NCBI GenBank assembly: GCA_000002445.1
Contig: CP000069.1
Coordinates: 1,536,001 to 1,600,000, forward strand
Reading direction: 5' to 3'
Length of the DNA stretch: 64,000 bases
DNA from: Trypanosoma brucei
Taxonomy: Eukaryota
A program made the position numbers and the translations under genes. How positions within the stretch are numbered: the first letter of the stretch is position 1; each line of letters opens with the position of its first letter. The notes beneath the pieces are model-generated. The model was not told where the DNA came from, did not search any database, and saw only the letters and a program-made list of their open reading frames with translations. This document shows positions 39,936 to 63,629 of this stretch, piece by piece.

Positions 39936-40097
39936 GTCATCTCATTAACTAATTTCTATAAAATAAACAATATAAACGACGAAAACAAAATTAAAAAATT
40001 AAAACCCCATCACTCTAATAATTTACACTAACAGCCCACTTTCACACCGAAATTACATTTTTTAAAAGTCCCAACAACTTGCAGAGGTATCAAAAAC

Positions 40098-40114
40098 GTG
40101 TTAAAATGTATCAG
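40098..40114 (-). promoter_or_regulatory. VSG 3'UTR 16-mer (variant)
   Basis: + strand 'gtgttaaaatgtatcag'. Confidence 0.5.
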
Positions 40115-40194
40115 AATTTAACAAAATATATAAAATATTTCCAATATAGTAAATTTGACAAATTTCATAAAATGGATCAAAAGTTCTTAAAGTT

Positions 40195-41732
40195 TTAGAA
40201 TGCGAACAAAGCCACAAAAGCATCAGCCATCAGAATCAACTCCTTATTTAAAAGAATACTTGAATCTTTATATTCTTTTTTTCGATTTTCAGCCACATTT
40301 GCGTTCCTCTTGCTTTTTCTTATCGGAAGCCTTTGAAGTTGCCTCTCCTGCTTCTTTGTTTGCTTTTTCTGCTGCTTTTTGTTTTGCTTTCTCACTTAAT
40401 GTGCATTTTTTGCCCTCGTCGCCTTTGTGGTTAAAAAAACACCCATATTTCGCTAGTTTTTCACACTCTTCTTCGTTTTCCTTGCCTTTGGTATTGCATT
40501 CTTTCTCCTTGTCTTCAGCTGATTTTGGCTCCGTAATTTTGGTGGTGTTGGATAGTTTTTTCTTCAGGTCCACTAGCGTTTTGCTATTACGTAGCTGATA
40601 ATAGCTAAGGATTTCTGCGAGTTTGTCTTCAACGTTTATGTTTCCTAATCGCTGTTCATTGTCTGATTGGGCGACACCAGCCGGGATGATGGTGTCGTCT
40701 ATCGCGTTTTCCAGCTGCTTTAGTTTTTCCTCTTCCTTGCTTACGAATATTTTGTTTATTTTTTCTTCAATGTGACTATTGTCGCTGTCGGCCTTGGTCA
40801 AAACCAACTTTTTTTATCGCCTCTTTTAGATCGGGTCGCGCATCTAGTGCCGCACTTTCGTTTTGTGTGTCCGTGTTTGTTTCTAGCAGTGCGCCGTTAA
40901 CGTCTGTGTAGGCTGCTTTCCAAGCTTGTGTCCCTGTTCCGCTGCCCACCTTCAGGTTGTCTGCCGTTTCCAGCGTTACTTCTTCGTCTGCTGCTGGCAG
41001 CTTTACGTAGCCGGCCATGGCGTAAATGTCCATCGCCTGTGCGGTATGTGCTAGCCCGTCGGTGTTGCCGGAGCCAAGCAGCCGGCATTTGAAGCTCCCG
41101 CTTGTCGTGCCTTGGTGTGTGTTGGCTGCGTTGCTCCCCGCGCCGTGCACCATGTTTTCATAGCCTGTGTCGGTTAGCTTCGTTTTGCTGCGGGTTGTCT
41201 CCGCTACTTGTGGTGGCGTTAGCGCGCAGGGAGTTGCACCTATCTTCCCGCCTGACAATATTTGACCCTGCTCTGCTGAGCTCCCTGATAAGAGGCATCC
41301 GTTGTTGGTGCTGCTTGAAACTTGTTGGAGCAAATTTAAGTATTCGTCTACTCTGCCCTTTAGGTATCCAGCGCTTGACGCCGCTTTCATATGAGAAGAC
41401 AGGCCTATTGATTTGTACTTGGACAGGGCTTTCGTTGCTCTCCGCGTGTAGTATTGTTGCACCACCATTCCTTTTTGAGCTTTGTCGGTTCCGACATTTA
41501 TTTCTACGAAAATTTCGGCTCTAAGCGCCGCCTTTCTCATTGTTTCTAAATGCGCCAATATAGCATTTGCAGCTTTCACGTTGGAACCGGCTACTGTGCC
41601 CAGTTCTTCGCTTAATCCGTATATTGGTTTCCAAACTGTGTTTTTGAACCCAAGGTGCTGCGCGCCATCGACCATGTGCATTGCTAATGCCGCTGCTAGT
41701 GTTATCACCGCCCATCCTAGAAAGCTGAACAT
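40195..41732 (-). pseudogene. VSG pseudogene (at least 2 frameshifts, one at an A7 homopolymer)
   Basis: ORF 40776-41732 reads 'MFSFLGWAVITLAAALAMHMVDGA...' and is the N-domain. ORF 40289-40807 is the C-domain. ORF 40195-40395 reads '...EYKDSSILLNKELILMADAFVALFAF' and is the GPI signal. The junction near 40797-40810 lies in 'gataaaaaaagttgg'. Confidence 0.8.
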
Positions 41733-43244
41733 ATTGCTGGCTTTACCTTGCTTGCTATTGCTTCGGCTGCTCTACCTTTTTATTTAATAAAATAAAAGAT
41801 TTTATCCGGATACTTCAGTTCCCCTAACGTGCGTTTGCGAGTTGTACTTGCGACATATTCCATGAAGCGCACGTATAAATCTCATAAATCACGGGAAAGA
41901 TCAAATGAGCATTTAAACATTATTCGCTGACACATTCCTTTCGGAACATGTTCATATATAAGAGTAACATAGAAACAGCTCATTCAACTCCAAAATCCGA
42001 CTAACGTTATTTAATATACATATATTATTACACTTTATTCGCTTGTGTTTTTCATATGTTCAACGTGTAAAAATGTTGGTTTCAGCGCAGAAGCCCATGG
42101 CCACTATGATCAATTTTTATGAAAAATTGTTTTTTTGACACATTTGCACTTAAAAAATCAATCTATATATAGACATCTCAATTTCTGACTCAACCTGCTT
42201 CTGTTTATATACCGTATTAAACTTTTAAAACAGGACTATATTTATACACTAAAAAATTCAAATATTATGGTTGATAACCTAATCTTTTTACCGGTAACTT
42301 TTTGTTGCTTCACCCTCTTCAATAACAATATAATGCATCTGTGTTTTGTAACCAAGGTTTTAGTTGGCATTCATCCTTATTCTAGCTCCAATTCGATTGC
42401 TTGTGTTTAAGAATCCGCATCTTTGACAACGTGCATGATTTCTCTATCTGTTTCTACTTCGTTGTTCTTGTCATTAAATGGAGAAAGCCTTTATCCTAAT
42501 ATGGATCACTTGATAAATGAATACAGTCAATATTTCCAGGTTTTCTAGCATGGAATTTCTGGCATATCACTATAAATGTTTTAAACATCATAAATAATCC
42601 TCTAATACTTTACACGTACGCTAGGTTAAGCACTTTACAGTTTCTATTCTTTTTTGTTGTCGACTGTAATCCATTGGTAGTCCTATTTTTAAAAATTTCC
42701 CCAGACAATATTATATTTTTATACACAAATATTGGCCATCTTTGCTATATATTATTAAAAGAAGACTTAAACACCAACTCATATTTATTCAATTATTTCT
42801 TTTCATGTTTTTTCTTTCACAGCTACACATTACAATATGCCATCCGATTAAAAACTACAATAGCCTCCACCATCTTTGCAAAAACATCTATTCACTTCTG
42901 TGTCAAATTAATGTCATTACTTGCTCCTCCTGTATAACTTCTTTTGTAATTCTCTCTTCTACATCCACCAGCCTCAATTTATATTGCTTCCGCTTTTTTG
43001 TCTTCTCTTGCTTATTCTTCTAATAATGCAACGAATATATTTGATCAGCACACTGCACTCTTTCTTTTCCTCATCGCACCTCAATCATTTCCTCGTGTAT
43101 GATAAATCTTATCTTCAGATTGCGTATGAGACTGTGCATATTCTTTCTCCTTTTCTTATTCATTGCCTCACTTATCCCATTTTATACTTACAATTTTTAT
43201 AAATACTTCTATATTCACAACTTATTTAGTCTTAACAAATATTT

Positions 43245-43320
43245 TTATTATAATATTCGTATATGCACACTCACAACACTGTACTATTATTATTATTATT
43301 GTCATTATTATAACTACTAT
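43245..43320 (-). repeat. 70-bp repeat (1 unit)
   Basis: 'attataatattcgtatatgcacactcacaacactgtactattattattattattgtcattatta'. Confidence 0.75.
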
Positions 43321-43579
43321 AACCTTTTCGAAATATATAAAAAAATAAAACAAATTAGAATGGCACTGATTTTTCATTCTCTATCAATCAACTGATTTAT
43401 ACACAGGTTCCGCTATCATAAACGTTTTGCTAAAGTTTTGAAATTTTTTTTTTTTACTAATTTGCATATGTGAATAAAAAAGTGTTAAAATAAATCAAAT
43501 TTAAAAATTTAAGAAAGTTCTCTCGAATTTAAAAAGTCCATAAAATTTAGCAAAAATTCTTAGATTACTAGAATACTCA

Positions 43580-45130
43580 CAAACTCACAAAAGAAGTAGC
43601 GATGAGATTAAATTTATTTTTCACAAGAAACCTACCAGATCGAAATTTGTCCGTATACTTATCTCTGTCCCCTTCACTTTCCTTTTCCACAGTTAATGTT
43701 TTTGCCACCCTTTTTGACTGCCTAACATGCGTTCTTGGCTTGATAACTAGAGCAACTTTCCCCTGATGTTTTATCCCCGTCTTTATTTAAATCTGTTTTG
43801 TCTTCTGTGTTTATTTGGTCTTGTGTGTTTTTATTTGTTGAATCGAGATTGTCGCTTTTTGTGACGGCTGCAAGCCTTTTTAGGGTATTGTTCGCTTATT
43901 CCGCTGTGGTTATGCTGTCTATGTCTACCGTTTGCACTTTTTTATACTTGAAAACATTAACTTTTTTATTTTGAACAAGATTCGTAAACTTTTAGGTGTG
44001 CGCTTCTGTATCTTTGCCATATGTCTCTTTTAGAAAGTTAACCAGGGCGGCGTTGTTATGTGCCTTTATCGGGTCTGTTAGCTGTTGAAATAGGGGGAGG
44101 AATCTGCTTACAGCTTTTTGGATGGTGCTGTCTTGCGATAGAGTCAGCCCATCTAAAGCCGGAAGCTTGTGGGTCTTTGGCGTGTGTTTCAAGGCTGTGC
44201 ATATTATGTGTCCGTAGTATTTTTTGTGATCATCGGTTTTAGTTTCAGAGGCATTTGCTGTATTGCATTGTTTGCTTTTATCGCCTTCCGTGTACATTTC
44301 TAGTTTTAAATGCAGGTCCGTCAGTTTTGAGAGCTGATTCCCTGTTTTTGTTAGTGTTGGGTTGAGGTTAGTCATGTCGACCTGCGTGCAGGCGGTTATT
44401 GCTGCGCTGAGGTGGTTGGCTTGTCTGTGCTGCCGGTGCAGCTGCCGCCGAATTTCAGTGTGAGAGTTGTGTCTGGCAGTGCTGTGTGCAGCTTGTCGGC
44501 GTCTAGGTACGGTAGTTTCAGCAGTTCGGCGGGTTTCGGTACGTGCCCGCTTATTTTACCGTGTCTGAGCGACGTTGCCGGTTCGCAGTGCAGAGTGGTT
44601 CGCATCTTCCCTGTTACTTCCGCCTTTACTGTGTGCACTTGGTCGAATAAGCGCTTCGCGTTGGTTGGTGTGTTGACGGCGTGGTCGCTGTTAGCTAGTG
44701 CAATAGCTGCCGACGCCACTTGTAGCTGTGGCTGTACTTCTTGAATCGCGAGGCTAACTGTTCGTTCGGCCGCTTGTTGTTGCGCTTCTTCGGCTTCTAA
44801 TATTTCTTCTGCTTTTGCATCCTCGTGGAGATTAGGCAACTTTCTGTATCGTCTGTTGTTGCGGCTGAGGCCAATCTGTACCTCAGTTTCTCCTGTCGCA
44901 AGGCTTTCAGGTTGGCATCGTCGTGGGACAGTTTGCGTTGGAGATTTTTCTTTCAATTTGTTGAGGTAAAATTAAAGGTGGCACAGGTTCGAGGTGCTAC
45001 TGCAGCCTGTTCCTCTTCTGTAGACGCAGGTACTGCGAGCTTCGATGCCAGAAGAAGTAAAACCAAGTATATGTTCATGTTGGGCGCTGCCGACTTTTTT
45101 GTAGTGCTTATGTTGCGTGCAGGCTGGAGC
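43580..45130 (-). pseudogene. Heavily decayed VSG-like pseudogene
   Basis: Minus-strand reading shows a signal peptide 'MNIYLVLLLLASKLAVPAS' at about 45076, followed by a stop. ORFs 44396-44956 and 43992-44375 look like an N-domain ('...NLNPTLTKTGNQLSKLTDLHLKLEMYTEGDKSKQCNTANASE...'). There is a GPI-like tail 'SGRFLVKNKFNLIATSFVSL*' at about 43590-43650. Confidence 0.5.
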
Positions 45131-45699
45131 GTGCGGTGCTACCTAGCGTTGACTGGGGGTGATGAATGATTCAAATGAAGGAAAAAAGAGGAGAGTTTTA
45201 GACTATGCATCTTGTCTCTTCACTGAAAGTGCGATTGCTTGATTTAGGTTGTGCTTCTTTTGTTTACATTGTTCCTTGGTTATTTAAAATTATAAGGTAC
45301 AATCTTTCGTTTAACATGCTTCTCTGTCTGTATGCTATATTGTAAAGCTGCTACAGTAGATTTGGTTCTTTTAATAGTTGCCACAAAGGCAGTTATTTCA
45401 TCTAAATAATCTCAATTTTTATATTTAACTGATGCCATTCTATATCGATGTATAAAACATTTATCATTTATTGTCTTTGTGTGCTGGTAATGCAGTTCAG
45501 CTTTTGATTTCTGTATTTATCTTCAATTAAGGTTCAGAGCCGGCACCTCTGTCGTACATATTTTCTTCAGTATTTTTTCACTGTTATCCTGGCTTAATGA
45601 TTTTTGTTCTCGGTGCACGTTTTCCAGCTGCCGCCATGGAAGTTTTCTACTGCGAAGCCACACGGCGACTTGCCGGTGGTGGTTGCATCCGTCACACAC

Positions 45700-46375
45700 A
45701 AACAAAAAAAGTCGTGTACCAAACTCATTTCTGCGTGTGGATGTTTGCAGCCGTTGTTTCTTTCACTGCCTTTGCCGTGGCCAGCATTTGGCCCGCCTTC
45801 TACCTTGGTTTTGCCACCGCCAAACTTGGCGTTAGTTAGCTTTTGCGTCGCTGGGAATTTGTCGGGTTCGCCGCGTTATCGGCTTTCTGATTGAGTTGGT
45901 TGTCGGTTGCCGTTGCCTCCGCTTCGATGTCTTGTAGTGTTGCGCTGAACCCTGATGCTGCTTTGTTCCTACGTTGACTTTCTGATAGTGACTTGAATTT
46001 TAAATCTTGAGCTTGTTTCGCCGCTTTTTTGACAGTTCGCCATTTTCCCCTGTACGCTTTGCACTCATTATGTTTGTATTTTTGTTGGCTGCATGTTTTT
46101 TGAGCGGCGGCCGCCTCGTACGCGATGTCGTCTGCAGGTACGATGGTGATATTTTTCGCATTTGTCGTTGCCGCTACAATTTCTCATATTTCGTTGATTA
46201 CTGTGCTTGGAACCGCTATTTTTAGATATGCTTCGCTGATTTTGCCGGATGACTGCCGTTCAAGAACACACAGTGTTGCAAAATCTGCCACGTTGATGCC
46301 GTCCGCTCGTGCAGCCTCGCAGCGAAACATACTACTGCGTAACGACAAAGCTAGCGCCAGTATGATATTAATCAT
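45700..46375 (-). pseudogene. VSG N-terminal fragment (signal peptide plus part of a type-B N-domain, with an in-frame stop)
   Basis: ORF 46184-46375 reads 'MINIILALALSLRSSMFRCEAARADGINVADFATLCVLE...'. It continues after a stop as '...EIVAATTNAKNITIVPADDIAYEAAAAQKTCSQQKYKHNECKAYRGKWRTVKKAAKQAQDLKF...', which is colinear with the N-domain of the VSG at 37241-38560. Confidence 0.55.
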
Positions 46376-46927
46376 GTCTTCAGTTACTTGCCTGCTGAGG
46401 TAAACTTAAAGAAAGCGTCTCTAGTGTTTGTAAGTAAATGATATGCCTGTTATAGAATTACGCATCATGTTAATGCTCTCACAAACCACTAACCTATTGG
46501 CAATCACTACTATTGGAAGCTTCGGCATGCTTTTGTTGGACCACCAAAAGTGTCCTTTGCGCATTTTCTGGTGGCGCTTCTTGTTATAGCCGGTTTTTTA
46601 TGGTCGTTCTTTATCTCCGTTGTCGGAAACGTAGTTTTTCATGAAGGATCAATCAAATCAAAGTAAAGTAAGATGCGCAGATGCTTTTGGTCTGCTCTAT
46701 ATGCAGCATAGGAACACTGTCTGTTTTCTCTGCTGCAAACGAGCAACCTTTTACGCTTCCGCACTTAACGAAGGTATTTCTTTAGAACCCTGCGGGTTGT
46801 GTGCTTAGTTTTTTGTTTTGCGACTCAGTTTCGCTGATCGGCTATTGTTTAATATTACTTTGTCTGCCTCGGCAAGCTTTTTTGTTGCTTGCTTCTACAT
46901 TGGCCGCTTTTAAGAATGGAACTACCG

Positions 46928-46951
46928 ATATATATATATATATATATATAT
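46928..46951. repeat. (AT)n microsatellite, about 12 units
   Basis: 'atatatatatatatatatatatat'. Confidence 0.95.
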
Positions 46952-47646
46952 CTGTCGCGTTTTGTCAATAAATCTTGTCAAATCTCATCTTATACAATTA
47001 CAATCGTATAATTTGTTACTCTTCTGTCATGCTTTGCTACCCGTTTTATTTTACGCTCGGTGTGATTGCTTCAGCCTCTTCTTCTCATTAAACTTTAAAA
47101 AAGGACGCTTTTAGGCTTATAATTTCCCACTTCAACTTACAAGTTATACTATATTCATCTCTACTTGCTTCTATTAGTCGCTCAATTTACCCTTTCATCC
47201 ATTAAAATATTGCATTTTGAGGTATGCCTGGAAATTAAAATCGTATGGTTATTAAACTTCTTTATTTGGCGCTAATTTTTTGTTTATAGATGCGAATTGA
47301 GAAATATCCAAGTACTGCCGTTTCTTCTACCAAACATAACTGATTTTTTGTCTCTTTCATTCTGTGTTACTGTATTTCGCTGTCTATTAAGACTGAATAA
47401 TTTTGCTCCAGAACTATCTTCATTTCTGGTTCTTCTCTATTAATAAGTGGTCGTTACCTGCGGGTTACCGCCGACTTTCATGAAACTTATTCGGCCCTTA
47501 ATAGTGTTAGCGGCTGCCAATTTTGAAAGTTATCGTGTAGCTGAACTGCGGTAGTACCTTCGCTGGTTCAGTTTTTGATGCGTATTGCAGTTTTTTCCAC
47601 AGCTTGCTTCCTACGGCTGTCGGTTTTGTTGTTTGTTCATCCACAT

Positions 47647-48174
47647 TCATTTTCGCGCCTTTTCACGTTTGCACATTTGGTCTGCTTGTGTCGGAATGCC
47701 GTGTTGGACGTTAATTTTGGCCTGTGTCCCTTGTTGGAACGGATGGCTTTGCACAGAATATGTAGGCTGCGCAGCTAAATGAACTCCCATCAAATAACCA
47801 TGTCGCTTTTGCAGCAGTCCGCTAGCTTTTTGAATCGCCGTGAGTCGGGCTTGGTGTTGGGTTATCGCCTCGATCCCAGCGGCTGCTGCTACTTCGTCGG
47901 TAGCCGTAAGTGTTGGACTTTTTCCGCTGTCGCTTTCTTTTGCTGCTTGTAGGCGCCATATTGCTGGCTGCGTTAGTATTTCCTTCGCATTAGTTGCTGT
48001 TTCTGTTGCCTTTTGCGTATAGGCCTTTGCTTCCGCCAGCGAGAACGCTGCTTCAAGGCACGGTGTTGTCACTTTTGTATGCTCTACATCGCCTGTTGTG
48101 TCTGTGACTGCTGCTGCTGTTACAGATGCTATGAGTAGAATTACACTGCTTTTGAGTTCGTAGGAGGTGTGCAT
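47647..48174 (-). pseudogene. VSG N-terminal fragment (type-A-like), truncated
   Basis: ORF 47647-48207 reads 'MHTSYELKSSVILLIASVTAAAVTDTTGDVEHTKVTTPCLEAAFSLAEAKAYTQKATETATNAKEIL...'. No downstream continuation is visible. Confidence 0.55.
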
Positions 48175-50280
48175 CTTCCGCTGCCTTACACATCTCTGTG
48201 GCTGCATAGGCGCTGGTAGAGAGATTTTATCACTCTTTTATATTGGAGAGTATTATCAACGCCTGGTGTATCGTTGAGGCTTCTGCTCCCAGTTTCTCTC
48301 AATCTTCTTCCAGGTTATTGCTGTTATTTTTTTCTTGGTAGTCGGCTACAGCTTCAAGCCTGCTAAGGTTAATTTAGGAGAAAAATGTACGTTAGATGTT
48401 GAGTTCAGCTGTTTTCTTTGATTTGCCGAGTTGGCTGTTGCAAAAGGTTAGAAATACAGAAAGCTGTAAAGATCATAAAATTAATTTAGGAAATGTACAC
48501 ACATCACTATTTTTTACTGTCCGGTTGGATACAGTTGCATTATTAATAGTTTCCTTATTTTCATCTACTGGAGCTGAAATTTAAGCTGTTTTCACGTCTT
48601 TAATTAGGCGTTTGTTAGAACAAAAATGCATGCTTTCATGTGATAACTCTTTCAACATTCCTAATAGTAGGAGTCACTAAAACTAATTGCTTTTACACTA
48701 TTTTGTGGTTCAAAAAAGCTGTTATCGCCGTTTTTTGTTTTTTGTTTGGATCCGCTATTCTGCTCGGTGTTGCTCTGTTTAAATTTTCTGCTCATTGTTG
48801 AAGCTTTTGTCGTAGCTCGGTGCACCGGTGCAAATGAATGCTTGTCCTTTCATAGTCAGTATCATTTTTGCTATTGAGGGACTAACTTTTAAACGAATTA
48901 TGCGGTCTTTCTCAGCTTCCTTTTCAACGATAAATTGATGTGTATTCACAATAACACTTTAGGTTGATATATGCGTTCTACGAATAACTCGTGAGAGAAT
49001 ATTGAAAATGGTGCGCTTGGTCGCCATCTAAATGTGCAGCCTTTTTGCTATAACATTATTTTATTCATTTCTTTTCGGATATTTTGTCACAATTTATAAA
49101 TATAAAAATAATGCAAATACTTAAATTATCACCCAAAATGATTGTTTTTTTCATATGGTCAAGTTGTAAAAAGGTCGGTTTCACGATAAAAACTCACAGA
49201 AATAATGAAAGATAATTCACCTAAATTTCGTTTTAAGACAAGTTTTCGCTTTAAGGTCTAATCTATATCATCTTATATCTATATCTAAAACACCTAATAT
49301 TTATGGCTGTTGTGTGCCTCTATGGCAGTACAACTCTCGTTGTGCGGTTTCACCTTAAATGACTATATAATTCTGACTTTTCTGCCTCACGCATGTTCTT
49401 TGTTACTTTTTTACTTTGTCCTTTTATCCTGCTTTATTGTCGATCTCTTTAGTTTTTTCTTGGCAGTTGCGGCATTATTCCACTAATTTGCTTTGACAGG
49501 TGTGATTATACTCCATCAATAACGCATTAGCATGTATGCTTATATGAATTAGACGCTCCTTGAACTGGTAAAGCGGTTTTGTCATTGAGCCAGTAGGTGA
49601 GAGGCAGTGTATTATTTTAAACTTTCTTTTCTTCATAAAAGTTCATCGGGACATGCATACATGCGCTACTTTAATAGTTCCTGCGTTTCTATTGTTATTT
49701 TCCTACGGTCAGTAATCTGTTCAAAGTCCTGGTATTAACACTATCTTCTCGACAATATTATACATTTTCTCATAAATCTGATTAATTATCGCTATATCTT
49801 TTGAGAGAACCTCGATATTACCTAACACTAACCTAATCTCCTCAATCTACCCGGGCATCTTTTCACCTTCCGACGTTATGGTCTGCGAGCACTTCTGCTG
49901 TTGCACCTATCCATTTTTCTGAGAAATAAAGGCTTTCACCACCTCTTCTTCTTATTTCTCTTGATGTGTTATATTTCTCTCAGCTGTTTTGCGTTATATA
50001 TTGTGTCATTTTATTCCGTATTTTTTCTCCTTTTATCACTTGTTACGCGGACAACTTACCGACTCTATCGTCCATATAAATTGCACTCTGCTTGTTTTTC
50101 GTTTTCCCTTACATCACCTGCTTAATTATGATGATTATCAGAGACATCACTGTGTTTAAATAAGCGCATATTATATATCTATTCCTTTTTTGTGCGTCTC
50201 CTCAAAAAAATATATTCCTCTTCTACTCCCGCTCTCACCCATATTTCATCCTCGAAATTGGTTTACACTTTTTTACTTTA

Positions 50281-50340
50281 GACACACACTAGGTTTCACA
50301 ACACTCTCCTATCATTATTACCATTATTATTATCATTATA
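50281..50340 (-). repeat. 70-bp repeat (1 unit)
   Basis: 'cacactaggtttcacaacactctcctatcattattaccattattattatcattata'. Confidence 0.7.
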
Positions 50341-50495
50341 GGCCTAACTTTCATGTATTTAACAACCATAATAAGCGAAACTCAATGTTTTTCATAATTT
50401 CACTGATTTTTCATACCATAACTCTTTATAATTGTTTACATATAGGCTATTTTCATACATTTAAAAATTTCACATCTCGCAAAATTTTTACAAAA

Positions 50496-50512
50496 GTGTT
50501 AAAATATATCAA
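50496..50512 (-). promoter_or_regulatory. VSG 3'UTR 16-mer
   Basis: + strand 'gtgttaaaatatatcaa'. Confidence 0.65.
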
Positions 50513-50589
50513 ATTTTCGAAAAAATTTCAAAATTGCAAATTTCATAAATTTAATTGAATTTAAGTGGAGAATTTTAAAACATCGCACT

Positions 50590-50880
50590 CACAAAGCAGA
50601 AGCCATCATGATTAATTGTTTATTGATCATTAAACTGAAATCACGGCATTTATAAATGGACTTATTAGATCCATCACTATTTTCTCCTTTCCAGCCTCAA
50701 ATACTGAGGGCAGAAGGTGCAAATCCTTTGTTTTCATCCTCATAAGCTTGTTGATTAGTGCCATGTTGGGTACACCTATCTTCTTCCCTAATCTTTCCCT
50801 CCTTCTTTTACTGTTTCTTTTGCTGTTGCGTTTTTCCATCCTCACTCAATGTGCACTTTTTACCATCGTTTTCTTTAGGA
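50590..50880 (-). pseudogene. VSG C-terminal-domain remnant
   Basis: Minus-strand reading gives 'KCTLSEDGKTQQQKKQ*KKEGK...CTQHGTNQQAYEDENKG...SLMINKQLIMM'. It has the C-domain cysteine spacing and a degenerate GPI tail. The upstream part is replaced by an A-rich sequence. Confidence 0.45.
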
Positions 50881-51280
50881 TTGAAAACGCGCAACTGGAA
50901 GTGGAGCGGCTTTAGAGTCACCTTCCAGTAACAGATGGCGCAGTTGTTCCTTAACTGCTGATCGTGATAATCTCCTACTTTAGAATAACTTTCCCTTCAG
51001 ATTATTTGTGCTTTTGAAGAAAATCGTATCGCGCAGTGAAACTGCCACACTCCAGCGTTTAAAAAAATTAAAAAATTTTACAAAAACAAAAAACCGAAAA
51101 AAAGAAGATAAAAAATAGAAAAATCAATAAAAAAATTTTAAAATGTAAAGAATGAAAAAAAAAATTAAACCCCGCTGGAAAAAAGTAAAAATGTAAGGGG
51201 GGGAAAGCAGCTCAATGTGGAAGAGAAGTGAAGGAACCTTAAGTTCGACAAACAAAAAAGGCGAATTGGCTGCTAGAGGA

Positions 51281-51421
51281 ATAAGGGTTAGGGTCTCCAT
51301 CAAGAAAGAGCGGTAGCACAATTGAAAAATAAAAGATCAAAAGTCGTGACGCTTCACTGCTAGTAAAGAAAACAACATATTAGTAAGAGGAGAAATATCC
51401 CTAACCCTAACCCTTACCCTC
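51281..51421. repeat. Interstitial telomere-hexamer inverted pair: 'GGGTTAGGG' at 51286-51294 and 'CCCTAACCCTAACCCTTACCCT' at 51399-51420
   Basis: The arms 'gaggaataagggttaggg' and 'ccctaaccctaacccttaccctc' are reverse-complement related and separated by a ~105-bp spacer. Both sit inside an A-rich stretch at 51060-51560. Confidence 0.7.
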
Positions 51422-51572
51422 AAAAAAAAATTCAAGAGAAGAAAAGGAGAAAAATGTTAGCCATCGACAAAATAATTCACATGCGCAGACAGCCAAAAAA
51501 ATAATGATATTATTTCCGGGGAACTTACGTGTTAAAATATTTCAAATTCAAGCAAGAAAAGTTGAGGGTATA

Positions 51573-53097
51573 TTAAAAAAGCATGGCCAACAAAGCAGCA
51601 GCCATACTCAGAGCCAATTTCTGATTCAGAAGAAAACTAGAAGAGCGGCACTTTTTTGTCTCTTTATCATCTTCACCATCTTTTCCCTTCCTCCATGCAC
51701 AATTTTGCTTATCTCCTGTTTTGTCATTTTCAGAATCATGTTGATTTTGGTGCCTTGCACACCGAGATGAATCTGCTCTTGTTCCTGCTGCTGTTGGTGC
51801 TGATCTTGCTTTGGGTTTGTATTTTTTTTTTGCATCATAGTCACGGCCAGCCTTGTTGCAGTTATCTGGGCTAGCATGGTGTTTGTCGCATTCTTGTTTA
51901 ATGCTAAGTTGCTTACCTTCCCCTGGAGTTCCTGCTCTTGGTGAGCCGGCTGTTGCCTCCACTGCGTGGTTGCGGCCGTACTCGTGTTCGGCTTGTTTGG
52001 ATAGGTTGTCTATGTCTTTTATAAGAAGCTGCTTTTGTGCCACTTGTTGCTTGTATTCGGAAAATAGTTTCTTTGCTGTTAGTAGATGCCCGATCCAGGC
52101 TATTTTCTAAAACCTTGTTGTGCCATCTTTGATCTGGTCCGTGTATTCAACGCAGACAATTGATGTCCCCGTGCAGACGTTGCCGTTGACTGTTCGGCCT
52201 ATCCCGATCTTGTTCTGGTTGTCTGCTAACTGTCCCAGCTGGCCTAGAGATGCTGCTAGTGCGAGCGTTATGCCTTCATCCAGTTGCTTACCTAGATTCG
52301 TTTTGGGGCATTTGCTTATAAGAGTTTCTAGAGCAAATGCGTTAAGGTTGCTTCCTGTTAAGACGGTTCCTGCTATGTTGGTTCCTCCAGCACAGCTGTC
52401 CTGGTCATTGGTTACTGCGCACAGAAAAAACATGTCGAACGCTATTGATTTTCCGGCGTTTTCTTTTGTGCACTGCAGCACCTTGGTTGTCGCCGTGTTG
52501 ATGTCGCTACATACTGGGGCGGCTGCGGTGCCGATTAATGTTCCTGAGCAGAAAGCTTTGGTTAGTGCGTTGTTTATTGCGTTTCCGAGGGATTTACCGG
52601 TGCTGTCTCGGGGCTCCGTGTTTAGTTGTTCGAGCAAGTTCTGTGCTTCCTGGGTTGACATGTTTATGATGCTTATTTGGTAGTCTTTTAGGTTGCTGTT
52701 ATGCTTGGGCCTGTCTTTGGCGTTCCAGTCGCTCGTCGGGTTGTTAACCGCCTCCGCGGCTGTTAGCCACCGCGACCATTGTTTTGACCAGTCCAGTCCT
52801 TTGGTTGAGTCGCTATTGGCCTGCTTATACTTGCCCCACCCCTGTTTTGCCTCGGCTTTTTCAAACATTTTCCTCCAATCCGCTGGTGCTACCGACATGT
52901 TCAGCTTCAGTAGGCTGTCATAGCTTGGTGGCGCCGGCATTGGTGAGCAAGCAGGTAATTTCATGTTTTGAGTTACGTCGCATGCCAAGCAAAGGGAATG
53001 AAATGGGGCCTGGGCGCCCTTTGTCGGCTGGTTCACACAGGGGAGTTATCAGCAACGCCATTAGCGGCAGAAAGTATGGAGTTACACGCATCACCAT
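51573..53097 (-). pseudogene. VSG pseudogene (type-B N-domain; frameshifts)
   Basis: ORF 52918-53289 contains the signal peptide 'MVMRVTPYFLPLMALLITPLCEPADKGRPGP'. ORF 52107-53036 is the N-domain ('...SVAPADWRKMFEKAEAKQGWGKYKQ...'). ORF 51573-52043 is the C-domain and ends in the canonical '...DKTGDKQNCAWRKGKDGEDDKETKKCRSSSFLLNQKLALSMAAALLAMLF*'. Confidence 0.85.
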
Positions 53098-53276
53098 CTT
53101 TATCTTTGTGAAAAAACATTTAGGGCCGTTGTGTAATTTAGCGTTGGCGCCTGAAGATTTGTCGAGTTTACGAAACTTCTCAGTGGCGATGAGAGCTTGT
53201 TTAAAGGAAGTTTTTGATTTAGTCATGTGCTGCAGTGTGAGAGAATTCGGTTGTGTTAGATTTAAGTCACAACTTC

Positions 53277-54149
53277 TTAGCCTTGACAAAATCTTTTTCT
53301 ACAACTGCGGCTCCACAAATACTCCATATTCAATATACCATTTCCCACCATATATCCCATAACTTTGAATTTCCCCCAATGGTTCGTATTAAATTTCCTT
53401 CTCTCAAATTCTCTATAACAACTAAGATTTTTTACAATAAGCTTTGCTTTTTCCTCCAATGCAATTAGTTGTTGTGTAAAATGAATGAATGGCGCCTCTT
53501 CGACTTCACTATGTGGAATAGTAAAAAATCTCTCATCAAAACTAATCGCTGAGCAACAGCTTCTTCCTGAATTGCACTCCATATTAGCAAAGATTTATAA
53601 ATACTTTGTTACGACCATTATTCTTCACTTCCTTTCGATAGGTCTTTAAAATCTAATTCAAATTTCTTAAACGCCAACTCTCTCGCTATCAAGCCAACAC
53701 CACTAAGACAGTGTTTGCCACAAGAATTAGACTTCAGAAAATGAGGTATTTTTTATCCTATTCTTTCCTGTATCCAATATTTAAAAACAATACACATTTC
53801 TCCAACGCTCTTTGTGATCTGAATTATCGAGCAACTCTAACTGAGATGCATAACACTCTGATGTTGTCATGAATATAATAGTGTAAATTTGTTTCTCTTT
53901 GATGACATCTTCTTCACTACCTTTTTCGTCATTAGCTGCACTATTTTGTATAACATATTCCACAGCATTCAAATACTTATCATGTTCGGATATTATATCA
54001 GCCGGTCCATCAACAGTAATGACAATATCCTCATCACTTGCATTCTGTTTTTCTAAAAATTCCATAACCCATCTAGGCCTTTTAATATGACTATACAACC
54101 ATCCCATTTCAATTGTAATAATTTCAACATTTCTTACTTTGGCACTCAA
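53277..54149 (-). pseudogene. Small-ORF family member, copy 2 (122-aa ORF plus a downstream out-of-frame continuation); function unknown
   Basis: ORF 53781-54149 reads 'MSAKVRNVEIITIEMGWLYSHIKRPRWVMEFLEKQNASDEDIVITVDGPADIISEHDKYLNAVEYVIQNSAANDEKGSEEDVIKEKQIYTIIFMTTSECYASQLELLDNSDHKERWRNVYCF'. It is ~80% identical at the nucleotide level to 15850-16130. It sits between a 70-bp repeat at 54750-54830 and the VSG at 51573-53097. Confidence 0.5.
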
Positions 54150-54749
54150 TATGAGTCTACACCATTCTTTAGTTGCATGAGTTTGTCACTACAACCACAA
54201 ATACTCTTTGTTTTCTCATGGTAATTCTGTGTTTGATTTGCCGTTGTTTCTCTTCAAGAGATATTGAGCTTAAATAAACTAAATGAAGCAAAAGTACAAA
54301 AATACTAAACTTAGTGCCCTAATCTATCTTTAAAATTTGATAGGGTTATAAGAAAAACTTATAAAAGCTTAATAAAAAATACAGTTTGGCCACTAATGTC
54401 TTTACATAAGCAATCCCTTGACATTGTTGTGATACAGCTGTTGAAGGGTCTGTACTTAGTGTTGGTGTCTTCCATTTGAGAAATCATTTACATTCTTTTA
54501 GTTTAAGAAGATAGCTTCAATTTCACCTAGTTAAGCACACTAATCTTTGACTATAACTCATTATCACCTCCATCATATCTTCGTTTACGATGAGATCCAA
54601 TTGTCATATCGATGTTTAAATCCGCATATATTCAACATAAATGAGTCTTTTTTCCCCTTCCTCTCTCACTTACTCATTTACTTGTTGTTCACCGTTACCA
54701 TTATTTTAAATGCTTTTATTTTTTCGTTGACTTAGTGTTCTTCACCGCT

Positions 54750-54830
54750 TATATTGTATTATTATTATGCACACTCACATCGGTTACTCATATTAATATT
54801 ATTATAGTTTATATTATAATTCTAAGTAAT
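54750..54830 (-). repeat. 70-bp repeat (degenerate, 1-2 units)
   Basis: 'attattattatgcacactcacatcggttactcatattaatattattatagtttatattataa'. Confidence 0.6.
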
Positions 54831-55089
54831 ATCATAAAAAACATAAAATAAACTACAAAAAACCCAATTAGAATAGCACTAATTTTTTATGCTCTATCAC
54901 TGTTTTACTTTACACTCAGAGGCCGATGTTACACGAATTTTTCTAAATTTTAAAATTTACGTTAAAAAGTGTTAAAATAGAAGACATTCTTATATTATAA
55001 AGCAGATTTTATTAACTTCATAAAATTGAGCAAAAATATTTTATAAATTTAATTACAAAAGCAAAAATGCAAGCCAAAGAGGGGCCTTA

Positions 55090-56530
55090 TTAATGATAAA
55101 AGAATTTCTTTCTGTGGTGTTTGTGTTTGGAGCTGCTGTTGTAGTTTTTGCATGGTCTCCTCCGCATTTGCTATCTTTTAATTCACACTTTTCCCGGTTG
55201 CAGTCATCTTCTTTGTCCCTTTGCATTCGATACTGGTGGGTCTGTAGCGGTTATCGTCTTAATCTGCACTTGATTTGCATTCATACCGCGACAGAATGCT
55301 AGTGCTGTTGCGTAGCCACCACTTGTGGCGATAGCAGGTAATGATCGTTTCAGTTGATCGTCGCCGAGAGGGTTGGGAAGTTTGGTGTTAGACAACGTGT
55401 TGAGGAAAAGTTCCTTGACCTTTTTTGTTTTGTCGCCCAACAAATTTTCTACTTCTTTTTTAGGGTGTCTGTTGTTTGGGCTGTGGTCGCCTTGTCTGTT
55501 GTTACGAGCCACGCAGCTTTCTGGGAATCTCCGTCGTTGCTGAGCTCTGCGATTGTGTTATCTTGCAATGTAGGTGTTGTTTGGAAGACTAAGTTTTTCA
55601 GTTGGCGTATTACGTCTGCGGTTTGTGCTACTGTTAGTAATGTGGTCGCTGTGTGCCCGGTGTGTTCGGAGTTCTTGGTTGAGCTGCCTGGCGCCTGGCT
55701 CTGTTGCTTGGCTTGCAGTGTTGTCGCCGTCGTATAGCGTGTAATCGCCTTCACTCCCACATGGTGTGTGTTTTTACCAGCTCGTTAACCGCGTTGTTGC
55801 CGGCGGTGTCAGAGCCGCAGCCGATGCCCGTCCCGCCTAGTGGATGTTTGATATTTGCTCCTGCCCCGTGGTATGTTATAGTGATCTTGTAGTTTATGAA
55901 TGCGAAGGCGTCGTCAGGTGTCAGCGACACTTGTGTTATCTCTGCGTGTCACCGTGCTGCTTCTTTGAGCTTGCTCTCCGTGCTTGAGTCTTGTGGGCAT
56001 AGGTCTTGTTTTTCCTGCTTTGCATTGACATACGTGGTGCATGTCGCCGCTGTACCGCCTGTTGCCTTGTTCCCACTGTCGTTGTTTGTTTCGCTCGCCT
56101 TGGCCTTGGACACACCTCCGGCTTGGTTCGCCATTAGCGCCGTTAGGGCTCCTAGCCGGCGATTTAGCAAGTTAAGTAGCGGGTCTATTGTCTGTTGGAT
56201 GGTTTCTATCTCCCCCTGTAGCTTGGTTCTTCTTTTTTCTGCTGCTGCTACCAGTGCGAGATACTGTTGTTGCTGGCGCAGTGTGGCCATTGCGCAGGCT
56301 GCTAGTTCGAAAGTTTGTTGCTCTTTTTTAAGCTGGTCCAGGTTTGTTATTGGAGTTGCCAGCTTATCGGAAATGGCTGCTTGTGTCTCTCTGATGAATT
56401 TTATTTGCTGGTAAGGCGTGGTTATTGTCGCGGCTAGGACGCCCGCTGATTCTGCTGCCACGTTCCGTACCTGTGCTGCCAGTGCTGCTGCGAAGATTAT
56501 TAAAGTCGCCGTGCTTTGATTGCAGGTCAT
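55090..56530 (-). pseudogene. VSG pseudogene (type-B N-domain; multiple frameshifts; alternative C-terminal type)
   Basis: ORF 55949-56530 reads 'MTCNQSTATLIIFAAALAAQVRNVAAESAG...QQYLALVAAAEKRRTKLQGEIETIQQ...'. ORFs 55449-55760 and 55204-55512 follow in other frames. The 3' end '...DDCNREKCELKDSKCGG...NTNTTERNSFIINKAPLWLAFL' is homologous to the remnant at 9270-9560. Confidence 0.75.
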
Positions 56531-58442: not shown

Positions 58443-59975
58443 CTACCAAATCACAAAAGCAGAAGCCATACTCGGAGCCAATTTCTTATTGGGGAGAAAA
58501 CTGGAATCTTTGCATTTGTTTTCTTCCCATTTGCAACCAGCTTCCTTCTTGCAAACATCCTCCACTTTGCCTGTACATTTTTCTGTTGCTGTTTGTTCAT
58601 TTCCTTTTGTTTCTCCCGCTTGGGTTTTCGCTTGTCCGACTTTTGTTGTATTCAATTTGCACTTTTTCTCTCCTTCTGTAGCCTTATCATTCCATTCACA
58701 TTCTGACTTTAGGCTGCATTCTTCGGGGATAACTATTGCTTCACAATCTTTGCTGATATTGTTCGCTTGGTCCTTGTTGGCTGGTGTCAATATTTCTTGT
58801 GACGCTATGGGGGGTTTGGTTAAAGCTAAATGCGAGTAAAGTTTGTCAGCTTTGGCGCGCAATGCTTTCAGCTTGGTGTTTATTACCTTTGCGACAGTCG
58901 CTGCCTCTGATGCTGCGTCCAGTTTATTGGCTGCTTCTAATAGCTTCTCTTCCCACTGTATCTTTGTTGCTGTGCCTGTTGCTGCCAGCAGGGTTGATGC
59001 GCTCATGTCTACACAAGCGGCGCTCGCTTCCGCCCGGCAGTCGTGGTTGGTGCCCGCTGTCCCCAGAATTACGCTTTTGCCGCTGCCACCTCCCTTTGTC
59101 TTGTAGAGCCCTTTGAGCTGCGCTAGTAAACTGCGTATGTTGGCCCCTGTTGGTTTGACTGACGGCATCTTTAGGCAGTGCGGTTCAAGTTCCCTATACG
59201 CTGCTTTGACGCCGGCTTCATTCCAAGACGTAACATCCTGTGTTAGTGTCGCTCCGCAGACATCGGTGTTGGGCTGGTCCCCCGAGTTTTTTGCACACAG
59301 ACACACCGAAACTATGCAAAGAGCGTTGCCTGCTGTGGCTACTTTACAGTCAGCGGCCCTGTTGCCGCCTTTTGCCCCCGGGCATTTGTTTTCTGCTAAA
59401 GTTTCAGCCTTCCCTGCGCCGTACGCTGCTGTTTTTAGATCGTCCAGCACTTTCTGTTTCAGGTCTGTTAGTGCTGGTCTACTTTCCGCATCGAATCTTG
59501 CCTGAAGTGTTGCCGCCTCAGCTGCTATTGCTGCTGCAGCTAATGCGGCTGCCCGGCCTACGCTGCTCGTTTTTTGCATTGGTGAGATTTTTGCAGCCTT
59601 ATTGTTTTTGTCTTTGTTTGCTAAGGAATGCGCTATGTGTTGCCATGCCAGCCATTGTTCCTGGCAGCTGTCTTTCGATTGGACGTCCTCACATCCTTTG
59701 GCTTCGGCCTTGGTTTTGATGCCGTCCGTCGGAAAGGCCTTAGTCCAATAGTCATCTGCTAACGAAAAGTTCACTTCGTTGATAGCGGCGATTTCATCTG
59801 TTTCGAGCTGGGCTGTTGGCATGTCGGTGCCATCGTCGTTGGCTATTTTTATTAGGGAGCACACCGTGGTTAGTTCAGCTAAATTTAATGCTTCACTGTC
59901 GGCTGCGTGCGAATATCGGGTTGCTGCTACTACAAACAGGAGTAACACACTGGCGTGAGCTGGTATCAAAGTCAT
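58443..59975 (-). CDS. VSG: Variant surface glycoprotein, apparently intact (510 aa, type-B N-domain); the GPI signal is short or atypical and ends '...SMASAFVIW'
   Basis: It is one uninterrupted ORF. The signal peptide is 'MTLIPAHASVLLLFVVAATRYSHA'. The N-domain is colinear with 33033-34346. The cysteine-rich C-domain reads '...CTGKVEDVCKKEAGCKWEENKCKDSSFLPNKKLAPSMASAFVIW*'. Confidence 0.8.
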   Translation of the reverse strand: MTLIPAHASVLLLFVVAATRYSHAADSEALNLAELTTVCSLIKIANDDGTDMPTAQLETDEIAAINEVNFSLADDYWTKAFPTDGIKTKAEAKGCEDVQSKDSCQEQWLAWQHIAHSLANKDKNNKAAKISPMQKTSSVGRAAALAAAAIAAEAATLQARFDAESRPALTDLKQKVLDDLKTAAYGAGKAETLAENKCPGAKGGNRAADCKVATAGNALCIVSVCLCAKNSGDQPNTDVCGATLTQDVTSWNEAGVKAAYRELEPHCLKMPSVKPTGANIRSLLAQLKGLYKTKGGGSGKSVILGTAGTNHDCRAEASAACVDMSASTLLAATGTATKIQWEEKLLEAANKLDAASEAATVAKVINTKLKALRAKADKLYSHLALTKPPIASQEILTPANKDQANNISKDCEAIVIPEECSLKSECEWNDKATEGEKKCKLNTTKVGQAKTQAGETKGNEQTATEKCTGKVEDVCKKEAGCKWEENKCKDSSFLPNKKLAPSMASAFVIW

Positions 59976-63007: not shown

Positions 63008-63350
<343 letters not shown>

Positions 63351-63629
63351 GTAAATATGCACAATAACAGTACAATGCCATCATTAATATCATTACTTTT
63401 ATCATTATTACCCTAAATTGCTCTTAATATACATAAAATAAACAAAATAAACCTAATCAGAATAGCACCCACTTTTAACACCTTATCACCTTATGACTTA
63501 GCAGTCATATACAACATTAATACCAAAAGCTGAAATATATATATATTTTTACAAATTCTCTAGAAAAAGCTCCATAAATTTTACAAAATAGAGCAAAAAT
63601 AGTTAGAGGTAAAATTCGACGAAACTCAT

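What the first reader, a model, noticed from the sequence alone, without database searches (positions are those of the whole stretch)
51060..51560. Head-to-head interstitial telomere-repeat tracts inside an A-rich stretch that replaces the 5' part of a VSG
'gaggaataaGGGTTAGGGtctcc' (51277-51299) and 'CCCTAACCCTAACCCTTACCCTc' (51399-51421) are inverted relative to each other across ~105 bp. The arms 'GAGGAATAAGGGTTAGGG' and 'CCCTAACCCTTACCCTC' are near reverse complements. They lie within a ~500-bp A-rich, low-complexity sequence (51060-51560). This sequence sits where the N-terminal two-thirds of the VSG remnant at 50590-50880 should be, directly downstream of the intact-looking C-terminus of the VSG at 51573. 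Interstitial (TTAGGG)n in a VSG array could be a relic of telomere healing, of a telomere-telomere fusion, or of an ancient expression-site or minichromosome-derived segment captured internally.
Basis: seen in the sequence. Interest (0 to 1): 0.6.

Follow-up and report, generated by a model that had tools for sequence, protein, structure and literature searches.

The report
Fossil telomere flank inside VSG array
The two short telomere-repeat tracts are real, but they belong to a recurring stretch of DNA that normally follows chromosome-end surface-antigen (VSG) genes in Trypanosoma brucei and that here sits stranded inside a gene array; it is a useful marker of past rearrangement, not a new kind of element.

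Summary
Observation confirmed. The only TTAGGG dimers in the 64-kb window are at 51282-51293 (+) and 51399-51416 (-); chance expects 0.13. They form a perfect 13-nt inverted repeat inside a block that is 50% A.

Interpretation partly supported. The window is a T. brucei-group VSG array with every gene on the minus strand. On that strand the order is: VSG pseudogene, 3'UTR 16-mer, 107-nt flank, GAGGGTAAGGGTTAGGGTTAGGG, 105-nt spacer, GGAGACCCTAACCCTTATTCCTC, T-rich tail, VSG C-terminal remnant.

The same ordered module follows VSGs at four other loci in T. equiperdum, one of them inside a gapless 126-kb contig. Profiles built without the window find it again (E 4.9e-10 and 0.0037). The short "inverted arm" is part of a conserved ~90-nt unit that repeats within the T-rich region.

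"TTAGGG-like repeats 3' of telomere-proximal VSGs" are already described in the literature. The block is therefore most likely a relic of a telomere-proximal VSG 3' flank captured inside the array.

Rejected: head-to-head telomere fusion, telomerase-RNA retrocopy and retroposon tail. In a related T. equiperdum locus, homology to the window starts exactly at the tract, which suggests the tract later served as a recombination boundary.

The parts
51573..53094 (-). VSG pseudogene (B-type N-terminal domain plus C-terminal domain with GPI signal). It has a frameshift near the N-terminus and an in-frame stop at about 52107. Its last ~66 coding nt and everything 3' of them up to the tract differ from the related T. 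equiperdum locus.
   Evidence: Translations; ORFs; Pfam VSG_B 6e-29 and Trypan_glycop_C 8e-17; nearest proteins are T. brucei VSG-1167 at 81% and a T. equiperdum VSG at 77%; homology to L001 ends at 51641.
51529..51544 (-). Conserved VSG 3'UTR 16-mer (TGAAATATTTTAACAC, 1 mismatch).
   Evidence: 14 matches in the window, all on the minus strand, against 1.3 expected.
51422..51528 (-). Telomere-type proximal 3' flank (GTAAGTTCCCCGG...TTGAATTTTTTTTT). It is the only flank of this type among the 12 VSG 3' ends in the window that pass the stricter 16-mer filter.
   Evidence: Flank comparison; alignment A3 with L001 VSG-B, L003 and L004; a leave-one-out profile hits 51545-51386 at E 4.9e-10.
51399..51421 (-). 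TTAGGG-like tract. It reads GAGGGTAAGGGTTAGGGTTAGGG on the VSG-sense strand, the G-strand orientation expected of a telomere lying 3' of the VSG. It starts 152 nt after the stop codon.
   Evidence: Homology with T. equiperdum L001 begins exactly here.
51299..51398 (-). Non-telomeric spacer between the tract and the 23-nt inverted motif at 51276-51298. It is about 94% identical in L001 and weakly homologous to post-tract sequence in L003 and L004.
51276..51298 (-). Inverted telomere-like motif, GGAGACCCTAACCCTTATTCCTC on the VSG-sense strand. It is a decayed copy of the recurrent unit ...ATGCGGACCCTAACCCTCCTCCCCC.
   Evidence: Alignment A2: 6 copies in 4 loci with 36 invariant columns. A leave-one-out profile hits 51338-51275 at E 0.0037, the best hit in the window.
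51060..51275 (-). T-rich tail of the module (A-rich on the + strand), collinear with the T-rich regions of L003, L004 and L007.
   Evidence: Composition; blastn collinearity, e.g. window 51412-51068 with L004 3182-3543; 92% identity to L001.
50881..51059 (-). Unassigned non-repetitive segment between the T-rich tail and the recognisable VSG remnant. It is conserved in L001 and may be degenerate upstream VSG coding sequence.
   Evidence: no VSG protein match, and no repeat elsewhere in the window.
50592..50876 (-). VSG C-terminal-domain remnant (last ~120 codons, with in-frame stops), in the same orientation as the pseudogene upstream.
   Evidence: tblastn with 49 VSG proteins; translation.
50496..50511 (-). 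Perfect 16-mer of the remnant's 3'UTR, followed by an array-type flank and 70-bp-repeat sequence.
   Evidence: L001 14840-14900 read.

Best explanation
Window 51060-51544 is a relic of the kind of 3' flank that follows telomere-proximal VSG genes in the Trypanosoma brucei group, now stranded at least 51 kb inside a subtelomeric VSG array.

On the VSG-sense (minus) strand the module reads: 3'UTR 16-mer, about 105-nt conserved flank, short degenerate (TTAGGG)n in telomere G-strand orientation, about 100-nt spacer, a unit carrying an inverted CCCTAACCCT motif, then a T-rich tail.

The 'head-to-head' pair is therefore built into the module. It is not the scar of two telomeres meeting.

Inferred history:
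1. A telomere-proximal VSG with part of its distal flank was joined to the interior of an array VSG, leaving that VSG's 3' remnant (50592-50876). One route is templated repair or gene conversion from a telomeric donor, with the second end captured by microhomology. The other is an eroded chromosome end capturing a broken array fragment.
2. The VSG end next to the tract was later exchanged again, with the crossover in the TTAGGG-like tract.

Shown: the module, its recurrence, its internal position, and the homology breakpoint at the tract.
Inferred: the telomeric origin (from the literature and the tract orientation), the joining mechanism, and the use of the tract as a recombination boundary.

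At this silent internal site the block probably has no current function.
For: 1. Array context and polarity.
- All 14 VSG 3'UTR 16-mers are on the minus strand.
- The long tract reads TTAGGG on that strand, 152 nt after the stop codon.
- In bloodstream expression sites the VSG-to-telomere distance is 200-1590 nt (PMC2567434).

2. Flank type.
- Only 1 of 12 VSG 3' ends in the window has this flank type. The other 11 share the array-type flank.

3. Recurrence.
- The same ordered module follows VSGs in T. equiperdum OVI contigs L001 (VSG-B), L003 and L004.
- It also follows the L004 orthologue in the gapless T. b. equiperdum contig L007. There it is internal to a 126-kb contig, it again ends at a VSG C-terminal fragment, and more VSGs lie downstream.

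4. Homology is more than shared composition.
- Alignments A2 and A3 have 36 and 63 invariant columns.
- Profiles built without the window or its relative L001 pick out 51545-51386 (E 4.9e-10) and 51338-51275 (E 0.0037) as the best hits in the 64 kb.

5. Not an assembly artefact.
- The tract-spacer-motif-tail-remnant stretch is 92% identical in an independent assembly of another taxon.

6. Literature.
- Hall et al. [quoted passage not shown]
- Ectopic gene conversion is reported to duplicate VSGs between subtelomeres (PMC3467770).

7. Recombination boundary.
- Window and L001 are homologous from GGTTAGGGTTAGGG onward but unrelated immediately before it. The window has 223 nt there and L001 has 2171 nt containing a whole extra VSG. 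Both sides carry telomere-type flanks.
Against: - No bona fide terminal VSG flank (expression site or minichromosome end with a long TTAGGG array) could be fetched. 'Telomere-type' therefore rests on the literature statement, the tract orientation and the distance, not on a direct alignment to a real chromosome end.
- The comparison loci all come from T. equiperdum / T. b. equiperdum. L003 and L004 were chosen for small contig size, which may enrich for such repeats.
- L001 has a 10-N scaffold gap right before its tract, so the join between VSG-B and the tract there could be a scaffolding error.
- Window and L001 are only 86-92% identical and may be paralogues.
- Part of the similarity in the T-rich tail may be compositional.
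- The 152-nt VSG-to-tract distance is slightly below the published 200-1590 nt range.
- No 'empty' allele was found, so the joining mechanism is not resolved.
Confidence: 0.75

Rival explanations
1. Scar of a head-to-head telomere-telomere fusion. Two chromosome ends fused, and most of both repeat arrays later decayed or were deleted, leaving TTAGGG and CCCTAA tracts that face each other.
For: Two telomere-like tracts of opposite orientation lie 105 nt apart, far beyond chance. The arms extend to about 17 nt with one indel.
Against: - The tracts do not abut. The 105-nt spacer is non-telomeric and is conserved at about 94% in L001.
- The VSG-sense strand is T-rich on both sides, and the distal VSG remnant has the same orientation as the proximal VSG. 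There is no mirror-image subtelomere.
- The inverted motif lies in a conserved ~90-nt unit that occurs twice per locus in L003, L004 and L007.
Confidence: 0.04
2. Short interstitial telomeric sequence added de novo by telomerase while a double-strand break inside the array was repaired, as for mammalian short ITSs, with or without retrocopied telomerase RNA.
For: The tract is short (about 4 repeats) and interstitial. T. brucei telomerase RNA has the template CCCUAACCCUA (PMC8643685).
Against: - The tract is preceded by a flank that is conserved behind other VSGs carrying such tracts, and it is followed by conserved module sequence. It is part of an inherited unit, not a local insertion.
- The spacer does not match the published telomerase RNA bases 5' of the template. 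The paper gives 334A, 332A, 330C and 327U; the spacer would require A, G, G and G.
- The related locus has a longer degenerate tract of about 65 nt or more.
Confidence: 0.05
3. The module is an ordinary dispersed subtelomeric repeat, or an alternative VSG 3' flank family, with no particular telomeric history. The TTAGGG-like motifs are simply part of its sequence.
For: - It recurs at internal positions in several loci.
- 4 of 32 sampled VSG 3' ends carry it.
- No true chromosome end was examined here.
Against: - The literature assigns TTAGGG-like repeats to the 3' side of telomere-proximal VSGs.
- Tract orientation and distance fit a telomere.
- In both independent families the module ends abruptly at a truncated VSG, as expected of a captured end and not of a regular cassette flank.
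Confidence: 0.15
4. A-rich tail of a retroposon (ingi / RIME / SIDER) inserted between two VSGs.
For: The block is A-rich on the + strand. An ingi-like element lies elsewhere in the window on the + strand.
Against: - No similarity to any other part of the window, including the ingi-like element.
- No retroelement body adjoins the block.
- The block is collinear with VSG 3' flanks in the VSG orientation.
Confidence: 0.01

Closest known systems
3' flank of telomere-proximal VSG genes with 'TTAGGG-like' repeats (Aline & Stuart 1989, Exp Parasitol 68:57, as cited by Hall et al. 2013, PMC3708902)
   Same: - Lies directly 3' of a VSG 3'UTR.
- Carries degenerate TTAGGG repeats in the VSG-sense (G-strand) orientation.
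- Followed by T-rich sequence.
- The distance from the VSG is of the order reported for expression sites (200-1590 nt, PMC2567434).
   Different: - Here it is not terminal. At least 51 kb of further array, with about 11 more VSG 3' ends, lies beyond it.
- The tract is only about 4 repeats.
- The T-rich tail is cut short at about 340 nt and runs into a truncated VSG.
- The 1989 paper could not be read, so its detailed organisation was not compared.
Interstitial telomeric sequences (ITSs) of vertebrates and fungi, subtelomeric or fusion type
   Same: Telomere-type repeats at a non-terminal, subtelomeric site. They are degenerate and serve as markers of past chromosome-end rearrangement.
   Different: - It is not a stand-alone hexamer run. 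It is embedded in a specific gene-flank module tied to an antigen gene family.
- There is no evidence of telomerase-mediated insertion or of telomerase RNA retrocopy.
- It is not a fusion point.
VSG '3' donation' / segmental gene conversion in expression sites (Hall et al. 2013)
   Same: The VSG next to the tract looks chimeric. Its body is shared with the T. equiperdum relative, but its GPI-signal end, 3'UTR and flank are not. This is as if an incoming VSG had been joined to a resident telomere-type 3' end.
   Different: That process is documented at active telomeric expression sites during infection. Here it is only inferred, for a silent internal locus over evolutionary time.

Membership tests
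Telomere-proximal-type VSG 3' flank | Lies immediately 3' of a VSG 3'UTR (16-mer) | tested here: met
   The 16-mer is at 51529-51544 (-) and the module starts at 51528.
Telomere-proximal-type VSG 3' flank | TTAGGG-like repeats in G-strand orientation relative to VSG transcription, within about 0.2-1.6 kb of the VSG | tested here: met
   GAGGGTAAGGGTTAGGGTTAGGG is on the VSG-sense strand, 152 nt after the stop codon. The published range is 200-1590 nt, so this is slightly short.
Telomere-proximal-type VSG 3' flank | Sequence homology to other flanks of the same type | tested here: met
   Leave-one-out profiles give E 4.9e-10 and 0.0037 at the expected positions. Alignments A2 and A3 agree.
Telomere-proximal-type VSG 3' flank | Homology to flanks of proven terminal VSGs (expression site or minichromosome) | not testable with these tools
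   No collection of T. brucei telomere clones or long-read ends was reachable. Look-ups for TREU927 proteins returned nothing.
Telomere-proximal-type VSG 3' flank | Followed by the terminal telomere array (is the last gene before the chromosome end) | tested here: not met
   The window continues for 51 kb with further VSGs and an ingi-like element. The block is therefore a relic, not a working chromosome end.
Head-to-head telomere fusion ITS | Oppositely oriented repeat arrays that abut directly | tested here: not met
   A 105-nt non-telomeric spacer separates them and is conserved in L001.
Head-to-head telomere fusion ITS | Mirror-image subtelomeric flanks (genes and composition inverted across the junction) | tested here: not met
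   Strand bias and VSG orientation are the same on both sides.
Telomerase-inserted short ITS / telomerase-RNA-flanked ITS | Flank retrocopied from telomerase RNA 5' of the template | tested here: not met
   Three of the four published TbTR positions (332A, 330C, 327U) disagree with the spacer.
Telomerase-inserted short ITS / telomerase-RNA-flanked ITS | Orthologous 'empty' site that lacks only the repeats | not testable with these tools
   The only related locus (L001) also carries the tract.
Retroposon poly(A) tail (ingi/RIME) | A-rich tail contiguous with a retroelement body, or similarity to the element's 3' end | tested here: not met
   No match to the ingi-like element at 9.7-14.5 kb or to anything else in the window.

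The most novel reading that the evidence does not exclude
Internal telomere-type modules are 'fossil chromosome ends' that record how VSG arrays grew. Eroded VSG-bearing ends repeatedly captured broken array fragments, or telomeric cassettes were written into array genes.

Their TTAGGG-like tracts may remain active as recombination boundaries. They may also act as latent seeds at which a broken subtelomere could be healed, turning the adjacent array VSG into a telomere-proximal, readily activated gene.

The exact coincidence of the window/T. equiperdum homology breakpoint with the tract is the one observation here that points beyond a passive relic.
Probability: 0.2. Interest if true: 0.6.

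Novelty: new member of a known kind. Interest (0 to 1): 0.35.

Why it matters
The VSG archive evolves very fast, and traffic between telomeres and internal arrays is thought to shape which antigen genes can be activated early or late. Direct sequence scars of that traffic are rarely pointed out.

A recognisable telomere-type flank inside an array, ending at a truncated VSG, is such a scar. A genome-wide census of these modules in long-read assemblies could give three things:
- a map of former chromosome ends;
- rates of telomere-to-array transfer;
- a test of whether short internal TTAGGG tracts act as recombination boundaries or as binding sites for telomere proteins.

For this single locus the result is mostly explanatory. 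It removes the more exotic reading of a telomere fusion.

Tried and rejected
- Block repeated within the window or derived from the ingi-like element: blastn found only the 16-mer and low-complexity noise.
- Rfam scan of 50300-51700, both strands: only chance-level hits, all far below gathering scores.
- Telomerase-RNA retrocopy: the published TbTR bases next to the template do not fit the spacer.
- Hairpin or cruciform role for the inverted repeat: DNA fold -15.5 kcal/mol, z = -2.1, weak, and explained by the module's built-in motifs.
- Source strain and orthologous loci through neighbouring intact VSGs: the 510-aa VSG at 58443-59975 is not on record. Its nearest protein is only 80% identical, Lister 427 VSG-1741. 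The strain was not identified.
- Three look-ups of TREU927 VSG proteins returned no contig.
- Array loci without the module: T. b. equiperdum L005 and L006 and T. b. gambiense L008.
- Literature: searches for interstitial or internal telomere repeats in T. brucei VSG arrays found no direct description. Aline & Stuart 1989 and Marcello & Barry 2007 are not held.

Full report
**Observation**

The stated sequences are present. 'gaggaataagggttagggtctcc' lies at 51276-51298, one base off the stated start. 'ccctaaccctaacccttaccctc' lies at 51399-51421.

A telomere dimer (TTAGGGTTAGGG, up to 1 mismatch) occurs three times in the 64-kb window, all in this spot. Dinucleotide-preserving shuffles expect 0.13, and none of 100 reached three. 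Single hexamers are not enriched: 22 against 21 expected. The clustering is therefore the signal.

The arms form a perfect 13-nt inverted repeat, TAAGGGTTAGGGT / ACCCTAACCCTTA, 109 nt apart. The stretch 51060-51560 is 49.7% A on the + strand against 23% for the window.

**Context**

The window is a VSG array of the Trypanosoma brucei group.
- The conserved VSG 3'UTR 16-mer occurs 14 times, always on the minus strand.
- 70-bp-repeat cores recur between the genes.
- The ORFs carry VSG_B and Trypan_glycop_C domains.
- The nearest proteins are T. brucei and T. equiperdum VSGs.

The gene directly upstream of the block, on the minus strand at 53094-51573, is a VSG pseudogene with a frameshift and an in-frame stop. 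Downstream lies a VSG C-terminal-domain remnant at 50876-50592, with its own perfect 16-mer at 50496-50511.

On the VSG-sense strand the locus reads:
1. VSG pseudogene
2. 16-mer
3. 107-nt flank
4. GAGGGTAAGGGTTAGGGTTAGGG
5. 105-nt spacer
6. GGAGACCCTAACCCTTATTCCTC
7. about 215-nt T-rich tail
8. about 180 nt of unassigned sequence
9. VSG 3' remnant
10. 16-mer
11. 70-bp repeat

The long tract thus has the orientation a telomere would have behind a VSG transcribed towards a chromosome end. It starts 152 nt after the stop codon. In bloodstream expression sites that distance is 200-1590 nt (PMC2567434).

**The block is a recurrent module**

Within the window it is unique. Of the 12 VSG 3' ends in the window that pass the stricter 16-mer filter, 11 share an array-type flank after the 16-mer. 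Only the one at 51544 has a different, T-rich flank that begins GTAAGTTCCCC.

That flank type, followed by degenerate TTAGGG repeats and then by T-rich sequence holding the inverted motif GGACCCTAACCCTCCTCCCCC, is found at these other loci:

| Locus | Source | What is seen |
|---|---|---|
| L001 (second VSG, "VSG-B") | T. equiperdum OVI contig | Same flank type, then a tract of about 65 nt or more |
| L003 | T. equiperdum OVI contig | Flank, tract, two inverted-motif units |
| L004 | T. equiperdum OVI contig | Flank, tract, inverted-motif units, then a VSG C-terminal fragment |
| L007 | T. b. equiperdum IVM-t1, gapless contig | Orthologue of L004 (94.9% over 8.4 kb) with the same module |

In L004 and L007 the T-rich region ends abruptly at a VSG C-terminal-domain fragment. 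That fragment is followed by a 3'UTR, 70-bp repeats and more VSGs. This is the same architecture as in the window, and L007 lies inside a 126-kb contig without gaps.

The alignments show homology beyond shared composition:
- The post-16-mer flank has 63 invariant columns in 4 loci (A3).
- The unit around the inverted motif has 36 invariant columns in 6 copies (A2).
- Profiles built without the window or its relative L001 find the window only at 51545-51386 (E 4.9e-10) and 51338-51275 (E 0.0037).

In all sequence sampled (187 kb), 4 of 32 VSG 3' ends with a recognisable 16-mer are followed within 700 nt by a telomere-like dimer. Three array loci have none (L005, L006, L008).

**What the module is**

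Hall et al. [quoted passage not shown] The 1989 paper itself is not held.

Three lines of evidence agree: that statement, the tract orientation, and the distance from the VSG. The best reading is that 51060-51544 is a relic of a telomere-proximal VSG 3' flank that has become internal.

It is not a working chromosome end. The window runs on for 51 kb with about 11 more VSG 3' ends and an ingi-like retroelement.

It is not an assembly artefact. The stretch from the tract to the remnant is 92% identical in an independent assembly of another taxon.

**The 'head-to-head' feature**

The short inverted arm is a decayed copy of a motif built into the module. It sits in a conserved ~90-nt unit that occurs twice per locus in L003, L004 and L007.

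Three facts speak against a telomere-telomere fusion:
- The two tracts do not abut.
- The spacer is non-telomeric and conserved.
- Strand composition and VSG orientation are the same on both sides.

The predicted hairpin is weak, with z = -2.1.

**Other origins tested**

- Telomerase-RNA retrocopy, as in rodent TERC-ITSs. The published TbTR bases 5' of the template are 334A, 332A, 330C and 327U (PMC8643685). The spacer would require A, G, G and G.
- Retroposon tail. There is no similarity to the ingi-like element or to anything else in the window.
- Healing at a random break. The tract is preceded by the conserved flank.
- Known RNA families. Nothing above noise.

**History (inferred)**

In two independent families (window/L001 and L004/L007) the T-rich tail, about 340 nt in one and about 1000 nt in the other, runs straight into a truncated VSG of the same orientation. 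Two routes fit this:
- A break in an array VSG was repaired by copying a telomeric VSG and part of its distal flank, with the second end captured by microhomology.
- An eroded VSG-bearing chromosome end captured a broken array fragment.

I could not separate the two routes, because no 'empty' allele was found.

A second event is suggested by the comparison with L001. Homology to the window is 86-88% up to 51641, near the end of the VSG coding sequence. It is then absent. It resumes at 92% exactly at GGTTAGGGTTAGGG.

Between those two points the window has 223 nt: its own GPI signal, 3'UTR and telomere-type flank. L001 has 2171 nt: a whole extra VSG joined without a 70-bp repeat, plus that VSG's own telomere-type flank. 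Two different telomere-type flanks joined to the same distal sequence at the tract point to a crossover within the repeat.

Caveats:
- L001 has a 10-N scaffold gap just before its tract.
- The two loci may be paralogues.
- All comparison loci come from the T. equiperdum lineage.
- No true chromosome end could be aligned.

**Verdict**

The fusion and healing readings are not supported. The 'captured telomere-derived segment' reading is supported.

The kind of sequence is already known: TTAGGG-like repeats 3' of telomere-proximal VSGs. Its internal, truncated occurrence here is a further member of that kind. It has moderate value as a marker of telomere-to-array traffic and as a possible recombination boundary.

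Noticed in passing
window 9700-14500 (+): Degenerate ingi-like non-LTR retrotransposon. It is split into three ORFs carrying endonuclease (PF14529), reverse transcriptase (PF00078) and weak RNase H matches. Window 9738-12750 is 94-96% identical to a copy in T. b. gambiense DAL972 chromosome record FN554972.1. It lies in the opposite orientation to all VSGs of the window.
   Followed up: partly
L001 11588-11605 (T. equiperdum CZPT02001881.1): A VSG truncated just before its GPI signal is joined, within about 16 nt, to the 5' flank of a second, nearly intact VSG, about 85 nt upstream of that VSG's ATG. No 3'UTR and no 70-bp repeat lie between them. This is a non-canonical cassette junction that suggests microhomology-mediated joining or a deletion.
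   Followed up: partly
window 40035-55124 versus L001 8163-21404: Mosaic synteny at 86-92% identity with cassette-sized differences. L001 14881-17943 (3 kb) stands against window 50300-43559 (6.7 kb). There is no match beyond window 55124. This divergence seems, from general knowledge and not from any test here, higher than expected between T. brucei-group taxa, so the loci may be paralogues or the arrays may turn over by cassette replacement.
   Followed up: no
L003 4613-4666; L004 3354-3400 and 3767-3790; L007 11930-11965 and 12333-12355: The inverted motif GGACCCTAACCCTCCTCCCCC runs into a C-run and GC-rich sequence (CGCCAGCGCACCCCGCGCACACACC). Contig L003 ends in a run of more than 40 C. 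The complementary strand is G-rich and might form a G-quadruplex. In the window copy this part has decayed to CTTATTCCTC.
   Followed up: no
window 58443-59975 (-) and 51573-53094 (-): The nearest database proteins to the window's VSGs are only about 80% identical (Lister 427 VSG-1741 and VSG-1167), and the one window protein looked up by exact sequence (58443-59975) is not on record. The source strain's VSG repertoire therefore seems not to be represented in the protein collection. The strain was not identified.
   Followed up: partly
window 62589-63400: A 70-bp-repeat block with long TAA/TTA-type triplet runs appears as an artefactual 180-aa + strand ORF full of poly-Ile and poly-Leu. Two perfect 70-bp-repeat cores lie at 63044 and 63178.
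   Followed up: no
L008 11060-11090 (T. b. gambiense FN554972.1): The DAL972 homologue of the extra T. equiperdum VSG loses similarity inside the C-terminal domain, at a (TA)n run (GAAAAAATATATATATATATATAAAAGG). This may be a breakpoint or a slippage site within a VSG.
   Followed up: no
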